Positions 22,909-41,981 of a DNA stretch of 64,000 bases are shown here, one piece after another; positions within the stretch are counted from its first letter, which is position 1, and each line of letters begins with the position of its first letter. This DNA is from Octopus vulgaris (lineage: Eukaryota). The stretch covers positions 97,216,001 to 97,280,000 of the forward strand of contig OX597814.1 in assembly GCA_951406725.2 (NCBI GenBank). Reading direction: 5' to 3'. The notes under the pieces were generated by a model, which was not told the DNA's origin, searched no databases, and saw nothing but the letters and a program-made list of their open reading frames with translations. The translations under genes were made by a program, and so were the position numbers.

Positions 22909-23019
22909 TTACAGCTTGGTCATTTGTGTTACTTCAATTTCCAATACAGCAGGTCCGTCTTCAGTGTCTGGCAATGATGTTTCACTGGACTGTGATGTGG
23001 AATGAGTAAACCCAACTTC
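22909..23019 (-). CDS. SLC6 transporter terminal coding exon (long isoform)
   Basis: TTTACAG|EVGFTHSTSQSSETSLPDTEDGPAVLEIEVTQMTKL*; phase 0 matches the donor at 25427. Confidence 0.75.
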   Translation of the reverse strand, partial: EVGFTHSTSQSSETSLPDTEDGPAVLEIEVTQMTKL

Positions 23020-24862
23020 CTGTAAACAATGATATAAAATGTAGGTTAGCATGTACTTATAACTTAATAATTCAATATGTCTAGATGCAAGTTACACAAA
23101 CATATACTTGCTGCTACTAAAATTTGTGTTAGTGTCTATATTTGTAATGTGCGCTATAATGGAATCCCACCCAAACCTGTTAATCCTTAGGTTGTGGTCT
23201 CCCGAGCAAAAAACTATTGTTGACAATGGATGGATGTCTGTGGTTTGATGATAAGGATTCTGTTGTTTGGTCAACTGAATTACATATTCGTGAATTACCT
23301 TGCTAAATATGTCGCTTGTGAGTTGCAACACATTATTTCTGTAGTTTCTGTTAAATAAATATTGAAATCAACTAAATATGCAGGAAATACTTCTTCGTTA
23401 GTCAAGTAGTATAGAAATAAGTACACAGATTGTTGACTAGTTTTATTAACGTCTTGATGAAATGATTTGATGTAGAGATACTTAAGGAAGGAGTGGAGTT
23501 AAGAATTAATAAAATTTAACAATATTGCCAAAATACGGGCAATGGTGATTATCAAGACAATAACATAGTAAATGTATTGTAATATTTTTGTTTGTACATT
23601 ATGTCCTGTGTTCAAATCCCTTATCTGTTCTCCTTGAGTGGGTAAAGTAAGTACCAATGGTATATTAGTATATTCACTTAATTAACCTTACCCTACACAT
23701 TTTGAGAAAAGAACCAAGATTACCAAAGTTTTAGCTGTAGTAGAAGCTAATTCAATCACTTGAGGGCATACAAAATGTCTTGTATTTCTTTCAACTCTTT
23801 ACATTCTGACTTCAAATACAATTAAAATCAATTTTGCCTTTCATTCATTCAGGGCCAATGAAATAAAGTATCAGTTAAGTGTTGGGGCTGATGCTATGTA
23901 CAATCCCTGCTTCCCTCAAAACTGCTGGCTTGGAGCCTAATTTAGGAATAATAGTTAAGTGAGCCATCCAAATTTTCTATGTGGTTGAGAAGTTCACATT
24001 TAATCACACAGTTCTGGATTTGTTTCTGCTGACAAGCACCTTGAGAAAATGTCTCCTGGTTTGTGTGTAGAATTTGGTGGATGAAAGCTATTGAGTGTGT
24101 GTATCTGTGTGCGTTTGTGTGTGATGTTGCCCTCTTTAAATTTAAAGGTAATGGCCCAGAAGAGTTTCCGAGACCATAGCATGTTGAAACCACTTTAGTA
24201 AGTTTACATTATCATTAAAGTAATCAAACTTTTACTTGTTTGGCTAATTGCAAATAATTCTAATTTCATTGGAAGACTAACTGATAACTTGAAATATGAA
24301 TTTCTGCTTCATTCATTTGCTAAATCATTGAATACTTTAATCAAATATTTAAAAGTTTGTTTTATGCAACAGAAGCAGTATTAGATTAAAATAGCTATCT
24401 GTCTCTCATATTTAATGTAAATATATTGGGGAAAGGCAAATGAACTGTAGTATTCATCCAGAGATAATATTCCTTATGGAAGTACTGTGTTTAAAAAACA
24501 CAAACACATCAGTAGCAAACAAAAATCAACCAGCAGCAATTTTTTAAACATTTAGAAGTTTAAAAACAAATTGTTCAAAACAGACCTACACACGAAAATT
24601 AATTTCCAATATGGAATGAATTTTAATGACTGGACAAAGTTTAAAACAGAACAGAACTAACTTTTACTGCAAAAATCAGATGTGTATACTCAAAATTTCA
24701 TTACCCTTACCAACAAAAAGAAATTTTATATACCAGTCTATATCTTCTTGAGGAATGTCATATTTGAAGCTATTTCCCATTGAGATGTGTCAAGTTCATT
24801 GAAGCAATGTGACTCGCAGAAAATATCAATTCTATTTTTAGGTAGATATTTAACATCATTGT

Positions 24863-25170
24863 GGAGGCGCAATGGCCCAGTGGTTAGGGCAGTGGATTCG
24901 CGATTGTAGGATCATGGTTTTGATTCCCAGACCGGGCATTGTGAGTGTTTATTGAGCGAAAACACCCAAAGCACCATGAGGCTCCGGCAGGGGGTGGTAG
25001 TGATCCCTGCTATACTCTTTCACCACAACTTTCTCTCACTCTTTCTTCTGTTGGTCTGCTCGCTTAGCCAGCAGGGTGGCGTCATTTGAAGGCTAAAACA
25101 ATGCGAAGTGCATTGTGACTAGCGATGTGTAGCAACATCTGATAGCCTGGTCGGTCACGTGATCATGTGA
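24863..25170 (+). mobile_element. tRNA-derived SINE
   Basis: tRNA-like head GGAGGCGCAATGGCCCAGTGGTTAGGG...GGTTTTGATTCCC (A and B boxes) and a short-repeat tail GTCACGTGATCATGTGAT. Confidence 0.8.
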
Positions 25171-25426
25171 TTAAATATCATTACTGGAAAACATTGAAAA
25201 CATGCCTGGCCATGGGGAAATATTACCTTGCTTTGAGACAGGTGAGAGGTTAACGACAGGAAGGGTATCCAATTATAGAAAATCTGCCTTAAATTCCATC
25301 TGATTCATGCAAGCATGAAAAAAGTGGACATTAAAAATGGTGATGATGATGATAATAAGGAGGCAGAGGAGGAAAAAATAGATAATAGTATGCAAAATAA
25401 ATGTGATGTAAAGATAAATCACTTAC

Positions 25427-39000: not shown

Positions 39001-39817
39001 GTGCGTGTGTGTATGTATATATATATATATATATATATATATAGTCATGCATGTGTGTCATTGTGTATGTTTTTCCCCACCCCATAGCTTGACAACCGAT
39101 TTTGGTGTGTTTACGTCCCCATAACTTAGTGGTTCAGCCGAAGATTGATAGAATAAGTTCTACGCTTACAAAGAATAAGTCCTGGGGTCCACTTCTTCGA
39201 CTACAAAACCTATTCAGGCAGCGCTCCAGCATGGCCTCAGTCAAATGACAGAAACAGGTAAAAGAATAACTAGGAGAGCAGCTTCTATGAATTTAAACTT
39301 AAAAGGCATAGAAACGACTTTAAGACCTACAATATGGGATCACTTGTGTCAGTGGTTTTATAAATATTCTATTACACTCTGCTGCTGGTTGACAATAGGA
39401 AGGGCATCAGTTATAAAATCCCTGCTATTCTAACAAGACTGAAGAGATCTGTTATATCAGGAACACTTTAGAAGTAGAACCTGTACCAAGTGCCTCATCA
39501 TCGGTCACAACTTCCTTCTTTTCAGATCTTAATTTTAAGCTCCTTATCTGTCTATGCGACGCGAAGGTTTAACTTAGCGTATTTACTAGTTAGAAAGAAC
39601 TTTTAAATTTTTACTAGGGGAGGCAACTCTAAAGGCTTGTGTCAAGGTTATACAAAAGTCTTTTAGAATCAAGGGGAAATCACTCTGGAAATTTATTAAA
39701 AAAAAATTTATTACCTACTGTTTAAAATTCTGTGAAGAAATATTTTCCCTATGAGGGCTTAGGAAGAATATTTAATACCCGAAGTAGATTTCAGGAGTCA
39801 CAATCAGTCAGTCACAA

Positions 39818-39970
39818 ACACACACACACACACACACACACACACAGACACACACACACACACACACACACACACACACACACACGCGCGCACACACACA
39901 GAGACAGACAAACACACACACACACACACACTCTCTCTCTCTCTCTCTCTCTCTCTCACACACACACACA
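39818..39970. repeat. (CA)n/(CT)n microsatellite
   Basis: Directly visible. Confidence 0.95.
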
Positions 39971-41830
39971 TGATGGTAGTCTCACATAGTCTGGGAAAGA
40001 CATGCAATTTCTTGCTGAAAACTGGTACAGATGATTTGATTATCATGATCAACTGTTTGTGCTCAATCTCTCCATCAAATCGACATTGGTGGAACAGGTG
40101 GAAGGTGTACCACACGTCAGGTGTTGAAGTGATTGCAGAGCCACGTGTGATGAAGTGCTTTGCTTAAGAACACAGCACACCACCCAGTTCAAGATTGAAG
40201 TCATGGATCTTGTGATTGTGAATGCAGCACCTTAACCACTAGGCCATGTGCCCTCATACATACATACATACATACATACATACATACATACATACATACA
40301 TACATAGATACATACATGCACACAAAATAATCTAGGGTAAGGAGGAAGCTATCTACAAATGAGAAAGGAGTGAATTTGGTAGAGCTAATCTTCATATCTG
40401 GAGCGTAGGAGTGTAACTACAGCTATTGGCTAGCTTCCATTCTGAGGTGATCAAATTAGTAGTTGAGTAGAGTGTTCTGAAAACATAGTTGCCACAGTAA
40501 GAACAAGGTGATGAAGTTCAGTGAGCTTTGTCAACAAAGACATTTTACTTTGGGAGAAGTGCAAATTGTATCAGACTTGTGTACTTAATGTGATGTTCTG
40601 GATGAGGGAAACATGGATGCTAAATGTTGAAGATAATCCCAGAACAGAAAGAAATGCAATGAATATGTTCCATTGGATGTGTAATGTAAGTGTACATGAC
40701 GATGGAGGACAAATGAGCTAAGAAAAGAAACTGGGTATGAGAGGAATCAGATGTAGGTGTGTAAGAGAGAAGACTTAACTGCTATGGACATGTGGTGCAC
40801 ATATAGGATGAGAACTAGACAAAGAAATGCCAAGCAAATATAGAGGGAAGAACCTGCAAAGATAAATAGACTCTGCAGTCCATTTCGGACAAACACTCAG
40901 ACAGAAATACACACACACACACACACACACACACACACACACACACATCGACAAATGCACACATAGTTTACCCTCCCACCCAAGCCACCCACAAACTCAC
41001 GCACATTAGATGCAGGCATTCCTATAAGGTTAAGAAGTGCACTTCTCAACCATGGTTATGGGTTCAGTCCCACTGTGCAGTACCTTAGGCAAGCGTCTTC
41101 TACTATGGCCCCAGGCTTGCAAATGTGAGGGAAGTTGGTAGACAGAAATTTCATGAAGCCTGTTGTGTATGCACCCCCCCACACACATATGAACATGCAT
41201 GTGTGTGAGAATGTATGCATGTGTGTGCATATGAGAGGGTATATGAAGTAAAAAAAAAACTTGATTGATAATTCATTAAAGAATAATCTCTTTTAGACAC
41301 CAACTAAGATATTAGAAACCTTTGTGCTTGAAGTATTACAAATCACATGGATACAAAAACATAGAGACAAATAAAACTGATGAACTCTATATATGATATT
41401 AACTACAGTTAATACTTTCATCAAAATTATTTCTGAAGATTTTGAGTAGTCAAAGAAAAAGTTCCTGAAACAAAGTTTTGTAAACCATATTTCTTTCCTA
41501 TTTCTTATATTTCAGTCAGGACAAGTAGAAATCAATGGAAAAAAAAAAAGAAGCTTCTTACATTTAAAGAACATTTTATTGTTGTAAGAGGATATAAATG
41601 TGTTACAGGAAATGATATAATTAAACTGAATCTAATAACTTTACTGATAATATGTGCAAGATATTTAAATATATTTGATACATTTTTTTAAAAATGAAAT
41701 TATATGTGCACTAATGGTGATATTTAACATAAAAGCAAATCAAGAACTAATATGCATGCATAAGAGCAATAATAATAAAATATATAAATTTATTAATAAC
41801 AATTTAGTTCTATATACATTGAAGTCTTAC

Positions 41831-41981
41831 CTGACACCGAAGAGATCGGTAATTTCTCCACCCCAAATCCACTAAAAGATCCTGAGCAAGTGAATACTGT
41901 TGGCACATATTCAATGTGTTCCCAATGTTTCTCAAGTGCAGGTCCCCAATCAGCTTCAGATTCACAAAGGAACCGTATTCT
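41831..41981 (-). CDS. SLC6 exon, proximal C-terminus
   Basis: ACAACAG|RIRFLCESEADWGPALEKH...PISSVS G|GTAAG; the WGP motif is typical of SLC6 C-termini; ends phase 1. Confidence 0.9.

What the first reader, a model, noticed from the sequence alone, without database searches (positions are those of the whole stretch)
22909..41981. SLC6 transporter with an ~815-aa cytoplasmic C-terminal tail
Seen: after TM12 and the WGP exon the frame does not stop. It splices in phase through 30410-30243, 27414-25427 and 23019-22909, adding about 805 aa. Known: vertebrate SLC6 C-tails are only tens of residues. Inference: a transporter-scaffold hybrid whose disordered tail exceeds the membrane domain in length, possibly a transceptor or cytoskeleton-anchored carrier.
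Basis: partly seen in the sequence, partly recalled or inferred. Interest (0 to 1): 0.78.

Follow-up and report, generated by a model that had tools for sequence, protein, structure and literature searches.

The report
Mollusc double SLC6 with dead half
The long tail is real, but it ends a much larger octopus gene that joins two neurotransmitter-transporter (SLC6) domains in one protein of about 2,100 residues, a likely transport-dead domain followed by a likely working amino-acid carrier, and squid-relatives, clams and snails share this layout, so it would be a natural fixed one-to-one transporter pair.

Summary
Observation confirmed. The exons are in phase, with no internal stop, giving about 816 aa after TM12. 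Contigs of 3 likely-RNA runs from 3 studies join 30243>27414 and 25427>23019; the DNA-like run does not. 41831>30410 has only indirect support.

About 580 aa is a spacer no more conserved than shuffled sequence (25% against 21.5%), partly a 36-bp repeat. Bivalve tails are 162-332 aa. What is conserved: about 135-200 proximal residues, an LC8-type TQT motif and a PDZ-type end.

The main finding lies upstream of the window. The gene spans about 280 kb (27 coding exons) and encodes two complete SNF domains in tandem. The same linker-joined layout appears in 19 species or clusters of cephalopods, bivalves and a gastropod. Domain 1 is predicted to keep the 12-helix fold (pLDDT 86), yet has lost R191, G212, N213, W215, R216 and D592 (GlyT2 numbering) in 13 of 13 sequences. 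Domain 2 keeps them in 16 of 16.

Likely a pseudo-transporter fused to a working Na+/Cl- amino-acid carrier with a scaffold tail. No description found in 7 searches.

The parts
63643..63844 (-). Domain-2 exon, second half of extracellular loop 2. The earlier domain-2 exons and all domain-1 exons lie beyond the window end, at G000:C1 97,284,160-97,518,809.
60732..60864 (-). Domain-2 exon, TM4
55955..56193 (-). Domain-2 exon, TM5-TM6 (Q473, F476, S477, S479, W482, Y491 equivalents intact)
53173..53297 (-). Domain-2 exon, TM7 (N509>D, S513 kept)
51119..51363 (-). Domain-2 exon, TM8-TM9 (D577>S, T578, E584, D592)
47136..47333 (-). Domain-2 exon, TM10-TM11 (D633 kept, E648>M)
43016..43189 (-). Domain-2 exon, TM12
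41831..41981 (-). WGP exon, start of the cytoplasmic tail
35831..36004 (-). Optional in-frame cassette exon (+58 aa), present in CAI9715612.1 and CAI9715613.1
   Evidence: X1 record 6
30243..30410 (-). Conserved proximal tail exon; the RAILNHAY(S/T)NPQ motif is at 30259-30294; single copy in the genome at the sensitivity of the search
25427..27414 (-). Large tail exon (662 codons): conserved start, then a polar, poorly conserved spacer
27299..27319 (-). D-x-x-T-Q-T-D, an LC8/DYNLL-type linear motif (predicted)
25550..26110 (-). Coding 36-bp tandem repeat, 15.6 copies (12-aa unit rich in Ser-Pro). Unit count is 16 here, 12-14 in other Octopus proteins, 1 in Argonauta, 0 in the cuttlefish cluster.
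22909..23019 (-). Last coding exon; conserved acidic/hydrophobic end at 22912-22953 closing in T-K-L (class I PDZ-type ligand, predicted), then TAA
21590..22908 (-). Probable 3' UTR: AATAAA at 21619, and X3 record 21 runs about 717 nt past 22300 (to about 21583 if colinear)

Best explanation
The gene encodes two SLC6 (SNF) domains in one chain plus a long tail, and it likely works as a fixed one-to-one pair: a likely transport-dead first domain serving as a built-in partner subunit for a likely active Na+/Cl- small-amino-acid carrier, anchored by predicted LC8 and PDZ motifs in the tail. Shown: the exon chain, the two domains, the conserved linker, the residue losses in domain 1 and their retention in domain 2, the spliced tail. 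Inferred steps: (1) Both ends of each 12-helix domain face the cytoplasm, so the 84-104 aa linker lets both insert in the normal orientation, 24 helices in all. (2) Domain 1 cannot couple Na+ and substrate, because the TM1 GxGN/WR segment, both gates and the Na2/Cl sites are altered. (3) It has been kept for the whole age of three mollusc classes because it packs against domain 2 and aids folding, ER exit or kinetics, as a partner protomer does in SLC6 oligomers. (4) Domain 2 transports a small neutral amino acid; glycine is the best guess in cephalopods (W482, S479, T578 kept), with GlyT1-like 2-Na+ coupling (E648>M). (5) TQT would recruit LC8 and pair two chains, and the terminal T-x-L/F would bind a PDZ scaffold at the end of a spacer of free length. 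A domain-2-only isoform from an internal first exon would let cells make the carrier with or without its partner.
For: Two PF00209 stretches in P0001, P0004 and P0008. All 27 coding exons of the O. sinensis protein P0012 map in order on G000:C1 minus with GT/AG ends. Domain 1's last exon ends in a phase-0 GTAAGT donor and domain 2's first exon starts at phase 0. 8 of the 15 listed members of the cuttlefish-like cluster are 2029-aa proteins on single contigs of 6.4-7.8 kb, which cannot hold introns of this size. X3 record 24 has 4571 nt upstream of 30412, against 4134 nt of tandem coding sequence. The linker motif aligns across 15 sequences. The layout is found in 19 species or clusters from 3 classes. 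Residue audit: octopus domain 2 keeps 28 of 36 GlyT2 positions, domain 1 keeps 12 of 36. R191, G212, N213, W215, R216 and D592, found in 103-111 of 115 single-domain SLC6 proteins, are lost in 13 of 13 domain 1 sequences and kept in 16 of 16 domain 2 sequences. Domain 1 is still 66% identical between octopus and cuttlefish (spacer 25%). Its model has pLDDT 86 and pTM 0.87, and TM-score 0.78 to GlyT2 9hue. In the tree the domain 1 rows form one group (SH-aLRT 100), and domains 1+2 are one side of a branch (91, not starred).
Against: No transport, binding or expression experiment exists. The model of the whole tandem (mussel, 15-row alignment) was poor (pLDDT 49, pTM 0.41), so packing of the two domains is not shown. 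The domain 1 model used an alignment of mostly intact SLC6 proteins, which biases it toward that fold. Domain 2 departs from GlyT2 at A208V, N509D, D577S, M579E and T582V. W482 is M or L in bivalves, and gastropod domain 2 is further altered (W215V, G206S, D577I/F, E584S/A), so it may not transport everywhere. O. bimaculoides and an older C. gigas annotation split the locus (inside domain 2, not at the linker). TQT is absent from 3 of 20 tails, including Physella, and the tails are related by descent, so the counts are not independent.
Confidence: 0.6

Rival explanations
1. Domain 1 is a ligand or ion sensor (a transceptor half). It binds a solute in a remodelled pocket and changes domain 2 or the tail's partners allosterically, rather than acting as a passive chaperone.
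For: Domain 1 is under constraint (66% octopus-cuttlefish; 65 columns invariant in 7 domain 1 rows). Its pocket is remodelled in lineage-specific ways: acidic D/E at position 212 in oysters and mussels, T at 482 in all. Cephalopod domain 1 keeps S477, N509, Q473 and D633. Precedent for an SLC6 in signalling: C. elegans SNF-12 interacts with STA-2 (PMC8263066, passages).
Against: The pocket residues differ between classes (position 212 is S, D, E, H or R; 287 is Y, D, Q, C, N or S), which is unlike a conserved ligand site. Only 8 of the 65 invariant columns are rare in ordinary SLC6 proteins.
Confidence: 0.2
2. Neither domain transports. The whole protein is a membrane scaffold or signalling platform built on the SLC6 fold, closest to the first reader's idea.
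For: Domain 2 has fixed unusual residues (E648>M in 1 of 115 singles; D577>S in 8 of 115; M579>E/Q). Gastropod domain 2 sits on a long branch with further losses. The proximal tail is as conserved as domain 2 itself (89% against 88%).
Against: Cephalopod and bivalve domain 2 keeps the gates, Na1, Cl and substrate residues in 16 of 16. It evolves slowly and scores 577 bits against GlyT2. M at 648 is the GlyT1 state (PMC4919009, passages). D at 509 occurs in working carriers (KAAT1 D338, PMC8310414, passages; 28 of 115 singles).
Confidence: 0.12
3. Two neighbouring SLC6 genes are merged by annotation or by rare read-through. The true product is the domain-2-only protein with the long tail.
For: A domain-2-only model with its own ATG exon exists (CAI9715613.1; exon at C1 97,307,506-97,307,471). 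The joining intron is 28 kb. Other double-SNF entries in the databases look like such chimeras: P0086, P0087 and P0088 are single-member clusters whose domains have ordinary TM1 motifs. The 2412-nt upstream part of the X12 contig fits either form.
Against: The linker is conserved and in frame in three classes. Domain 1's last exon has no stop before a consensus donor. Intron-free 6.4-7.8 kb contigs carry the whole 2029-aa frame. No stand-alone domain 1 protein ranked among the top hits of the 1.8-billion-protein search: the top three hits were all tandem proteins.
Confidence: 0.06

Closest known systems
GlyT2/GlyT1 (SLC6A5/SLC6A9), amino acid transporter I branch of SLC6
   Same: Best solved-structure match for both domains. 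Domain 2 keeps the TM1, TM3, TM6, TM7 and TM8 core, the gates, the WGP motif and, in cephalopods, W482.
   Different: These have one domain and a short tail. Here there are two domains, domain 1 is degenerate, and domain 2 has V208, D509, S577, E579 and M648. The tree did not resolve orthology to any named single-domain protein.
SLC6 oligomers and engineered concatemers (NET and TauT lipid-bridged dimers; hSERT-rGAT1 fusion)
   Same: Two SLC6 folds side by side. The functional meaning of SLC6 oligomers is stated to be open (PMC12227546, passages). An artificial fusion was used to test cooperation (PMC8247324, passages).
   Different: Those are non-covalent homo-oligomers or laboratory constructs of two active carriers. 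This one is a natural covalent pair with one degenerate half. 'Tandem' had 0 occurrences in the review.
Long-tailed invertebrate SLC6 proteins (Drosophila GlyT-like GD11799/XP_039148017, P0089; C. elegans SNF-12)
   Same: A low-complexity C-terminal extension of hundreds of residues (P0089, 568 aa). An SLC6 protein that binds a signalling protein (SNF-12 with STA-2).
   Different: They have a single domain. Among the 148 new hits P0084-P0231, the tail motif occurred only in P0084, P0085 and P0187.
KAAT1/CAATCH1 insect amino acid transporters
   Same: Asp at the Na1 position in TM7 (D338 = LeuT N286), linked to K+ acceptance and weak Cl- dependence (PMC8310414, passages).
   Different: A different SLC6 branch (recalled), and the Asp alone occurs in 28 of 115 singles, so this is a lead for ion coupling only.

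Membership tests
SLC6/NSS (PF00209) | SNF domain above the curated cut-off over the full profile | tested here: met
   Domain 2: 602 bits, profile 1-522; domain 1: profile 2-522 in P0009 (462 bits for the whole protein); cut-off 27
SLC6/NSS (PF00209) | 12-helix LeuT fold | tested here: met
   Domain 1 model pLDDT 86, TM-score 0.78 to 9hue (prediction, alignment mostly intact SLC6). Domain 2 by full-length sequence match to GlyT2, E about 1e-172
SLC6/NSS (PF00209) | One SNF domain per polypeptide | tested here: not met
   Two complete domains; this makes it a variant architecture within the family
Active Na+-coupled SLC6 carrier, domain 2 | TM1 GxGN/WR segment, gates R191-D592-Y491 and R216-D633, Na1/Cl residues N213, S477, Q473, S513, Y233 | tested here: met
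   All kept in octopus; kept in 16 of 16 cephalopod and bivalve rows except Y491>L in Tegillarca; partly altered in 2 gastropods
Active Na+-coupled SLC6 carrier, domain 1 | The same motifs | tested here: not met
   R191, G212, N213, W215, R216, S513, E584 and D592 replaced in 13 of 13 (Pinctada and M. trossulus domain 1 rows left out for a repeated block and an insertion); Physella keeps N213 and has E592
Active Na+-coupled SLC6 carrier | Measured Na+/Cl- dependent transport | not testable with these tools
   Needs expression and uptake or voltage clamp
GlyT2 (SLC6A5) | Third Na+ site E648 and D577 at Na2 | tested here: not met
   Domain 2 has M648 and S577; residue roles from PMC4919009
GlyT1/GlyT2 glycine transporters | S1 pocket I283, S479, W482, T578, T582 | tested here: inconclusive
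   Octopus keeps 4 of 5 (T582>V); bivalves have M or L at 482
Monoamine transporters (the 'dopamine transporter-like' label of CAI9715611.1) | Asp at the TM1 position equal to GlyT2 G212 (feature recalled) | tested here: not met
   Domain 2 has G in 16 of 16 and octopus domain 1 has S; the best structure matches are glycine transporters
LC8/DYNLL ligands | [D/S]-K-x-[T/V/I]-Q-[T/V]-[D/E] in a disordered segment, and binding | tested here: inconclusive
   5 of 6 specified positions match (consensus from the abstract of PMC3078936); TQT in 17 of 20 tails against 3 of 115 much shorter control tails; binding not tested
Class I PDZ ligands | C-terminal S/T-x-hydrophobic (pattern recalled), and binding | tested here: inconclusive
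   17 of 20 against 21 of 115 controls; binding not tested

The most novel reading that the evidence does not exclude
Molluscs have carried, since before cephalopods, bivalves and gastropods split, a single-copy 24-helix SLC6 in which a pseudo-transporter is covalently tied to a working carrier and controls it allosterically. An internal promoter switches between partnered and unpartnered forms. It would be a natural, obligate SLC6 heterodimer and a direct route to the structure and purpose of SLC6 oligomerisation.
Probability: 0.4. Interest if true: 0.85.

Novelty: new variant of a known kind. Interest (0 to 1): 0.72.

Why it matters
What SLC6 oligomers are for is still an open question: they form shifting, lipid-bridged mixtures that are hard to study (PMC12227546, passages). 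A conserved natural fusion fixes the ratio at one to one and makes one half inactive. Structure, cooperativity and trafficking roles can then be tested by simply deleting or swapping domain 1. It would also add pseudo-transporters to the better-known pseudo-enzymes. The automatic labels ('uncharacterized', 'dopamine transporter-like') hide this gene in octopus, oyster and mussel data sets and could mislead cell-type marker work. The long tail alone is a modest finding.

Tried and rejected
- Separate tail gene: rejected; the contigs run 2.4-4.6 kb upstream and homologues are continuous.
- Tail length as a conserved feature: rejected.
- Tail as a folded known domain: no Pfam family at cut-off. 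The Atlas gave no usable hit for the proximal tail, which shows nothing. For domain 1 it gave only ordinary SNF clusters.
- Fold of the whole tandem (mussel P0038 146-1345, 15 rows): pLDDT 49, not used.
- Alignment A2 put many single-domain rows on domain 2 and was discarded for A3.
An intact single-exon LC8 frame exists at L017:1489-1758.
- No run is on record as RNA; the label is the tool's guess. X21-X24 hold next to none of the words, which shows nothing.
- Second copy of the proximal tail exon in the genome: none, 1 match among 3 candidates.
- Literature on a tandem SLC6: searches (listings and abstract starts; six locus ids, 0 papers) found none. PMC9815951 and PMC5085708 (passages) do not mention one. 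The 2018 octopus SLC6 phylogeny paper (recalled) is not held; it, subscription papers and supplements could bear on novelty and were not seen.
- Earlier scan findings: none.
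Full report
1. Observation. The window is AT-rich animal DNA with many microsatellites. Spliced in a script, 43189 to 22909 gives 863 aa with no internal stop, identical to the end of Octopus vulgaris CAI9715611.1 (P0008). With the extra exon 36004-35831 it matches CAI9715612.1. There are 805 aa from the start of the WGP exon, 755 after base 41831 and about 816 after TM12. The longest open frame in 20 shuffled windows was 165 aa, against 662 codons for the big exon. Four of the 24 listed runs were laid on 22300-36800. X1, X3 and X12 (RNA by the tool's guess, three studies) each join 30241 to 27412 and 25426 to 23018 with CT..AC ends; X17, a large DNA-like run, has neither joint and continues into the introns. 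But X3 record 24 and X12 record 9 carry 4571 and 2412 nt upstream of 30412 that fit nowhere in the laid stretch. X1 record 6 covers the optional exon with 28 and 26 unplaced letters on its sides, as expected of an exon-skipping bubble (inference; the letters were not seen).

2. What it is. Searching longer proteins with the big exon returned 4 proteins among 7671 candidates, from O. sinensis, O. bimaculoides, Argonauta and an unnamed cluster that also holds an Acanthosepion pharaonis protein. The 2131- and 2029-aa proteins have two SNF stretches. Mapping P0012 on fetched genome stretches places 27 coding exons in order over about 280 kb (G000:C1 97,518,809-97,238,909, minus strand). Thirteen of them encode an N-terminal part, domain 1 and the linker. 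Domain 1's last exon ends in a phase-0 consensus donor with no stop, and domain 2's first exon starts in phase 0. The upstream part of X3 record 24 (4571 nt) fits the 4134 nt of tandem coding sequence plus about 440 nt of leader. In the cuttlefish-like cluster, 8 of 15 listed members (18 in all) are 2029-aa proteins on single contigs of 6.4-7.8 kb, so they come from intron-free assemblies. An annotated domain-2-only isoform (CAI9715613.1) has its own ATG exon in the joining intron; its RNA support is unknown.

3. Range. A search with domain 1 gave 8 proteins among 7998 scored candidates, one with the oyster linker gave 12 among 84, and an HMMER search of 1.84 billion representatives put three tandem proteins on top. 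Together with cluster listings, the linker-joined layout is seen in 19 species or clusters: 5 cephalopods (two partial or split models), 13 bivalves (oysters, mussels, pearl oyster, ark clam, scallop) and the snail Physella acuta. Elysia chlorotica has a partial model with domain 2 and tail only. No non-mollusc protein with the linker or tail motif was among the top 150, but this is not a test of absence. Three other double-SNF entries (Gigantopelta, Strigamia, Mesorhabditis) are single-member clusters with ordinary TM1 motifs and no shared linker, and look like merged neighbours. In a 48-row quick tree (7 domain 1 rows, 9 domain 2 rows, 30 of 115 singles, 2 outgroup rows) domain 1 rows group at SH-aLRT 100. 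Domains 1+2 form one side of a branch at 91, not starred, with long branches present. This fits an ancient internal duplication but does not show it; two intron positions differ between the domains.

4. Residue audit. Human GlyT2 numbering was counted from the alignment. Roles of G206, V209, L574, D577, I283, S479, W482, T578, T582 and E648 are from PMC4919009 (passages); the gate, Na1 and Cl labels are recalled. Of 36 positions, octopus domain 2 keeps 28 and domain 1 keeps 12. R191, G212, N213, W215, R216 and D592 occur in 103-111 of 115 single-domain SLC6 proteins. They are replaced in 13 of 13 domain 1 rows (two rows left out for model defects) and kept in 16 of 16 domain 2 rows. Physella domain 1 keeps N213, and gastropod domain 2 is more altered. 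Domain 1 is nonetheless conserved (66% octopus-cuttlefish; linker 76%; domain 2 88%). It is predicted to keep the fold (pLDDT 86, pTM 0.87, TM-score 0.78 to GlyT2), with the caveat that the alignment was mostly intact carriers. Domain 2 is closest to GlyT2 among solved structures (577-580 bits), but has the GlyT1-type M648, S577, and D509 as in KAAT1 (PMC8310414, passages). It is not a monoamine carrier, despite one database label.

5. The tail. Measured from WGP it is 691-794 aa in coleoids, 162-332 in bivalves, and 393 and 756 in two gastropods; 115 single-domain representatives have a median of 42, and 3 exceed 300. Octopus-cuttlefish identity is 89% for the first 135 aa, 71% for the next 65, 25% for the spacer (shuffles 21.5% mean, 24.6% max) and 75% for the last 16. 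A 36-bp coding repeat adds about 190 aa in Octopus only. Conserved elements: AILNHAY in 19 of 20 tails, TQT in 17 of 20 (3 of 115 controls, whose tails are far shorter) and a class I PDZ-type end in 17 of 20 (21 of 115 controls). The TQT context matches 5 of 6 positions of the LC8 consensus (PMC3078936, abstract). Binding was not tested.

6. Mechanism. Most likely a working Na+/Cl- small-amino-acid carrier with a covalently attached dead paralogue domain that acts as its partner subunit, held at a membrane site by LC8- and PDZ-type motifs on a spacer of free length (0.6). Rivals: domain 1 as a sensor (0.2), a wholly non-transporting scaffold (0.12), an annotation or read-through artefact (0.06). 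My separate estimates: single tandem polypeptide about 0.93, domain 1 transport-dead about 0.85, domain 2 active in octopus about 0.8. The whole-tandem model was too poor to show packing.

7. Known and new. The proteins are already in public annotations, mostly as 'uncharacterized'. Seven searches of the held library found no description of a natural two-domain SLC6. A review on SLC6 oligomers mentions only an engineered concatemer (PMC8247324, passages). Subscription papers and supplements were not seen. Verdict: new variant of a known kind.

Noticed in passing
window 2654-3524 (-): Fragment of a LINE-type reverse transcriptase frame (RVT_1, E 0.0015, under cut-off), downstream of the gene.
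   Followed up: partly
window 14144-14941 (+): Broken mariner/Tc1 transposase: HTH_48 (E 0.003) and Transposase_1 (E 1.6e-16) in two frames.
   Followed up: partly
window 27738-28304 (+): Non-LTR retrotransposon RT fragment inside the intron above the big tail exon; very high contig depth there marks a repeat.
   Followed up: partly
window 48017-48771 (+): PHD-finger frame (E 9.5e-06) followed by a LINE-like C-terminal fragment in an intron, probably a retrotransposon remnant.
   Followed up: partly
P0085 and P0187 (Physella, Elysia): Gastropod domain 2 is itself drifting (W215V, G206S, D577I/F, E584S/A, long branch), so in these snails both domains may be losing transport.
   Followed up: partly
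P0086 (Gigantopelta aegis XP_041349165.1): A second, unrelated double-SNF entry made of two monoamine-transporter-like domains; single-member cluster, may be merged neighbours or an independent fusion.
   Followed up: no
P0089 (Drosophila simulans GD11799), P0183, P0099: Single-domain SLC6 proteins with 331-568 aa C-terminal tails.
   Followed up: partly
window 26012, 26020, 26496, 26677, 26830, 26922: Differences between run contigs and the genome in the big exon; all of them also seen in the DNA-like run except 26922, so most are likely alleles rather than RNA editing.
   Followed up: no
L017:1489-1758 (+): Intact single-exon dynein light chain LC8 frame (89 aa), one of 3 PF01221 matches in the genome.
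   Followed up: partly
O. bimaculoides XP_014791212.2 and XP_014791269.1: The locus is split into two gene models inside domain 2, and the first is labelled 'dopamine transporter', which could confuse marker studies.
   Followed up: no
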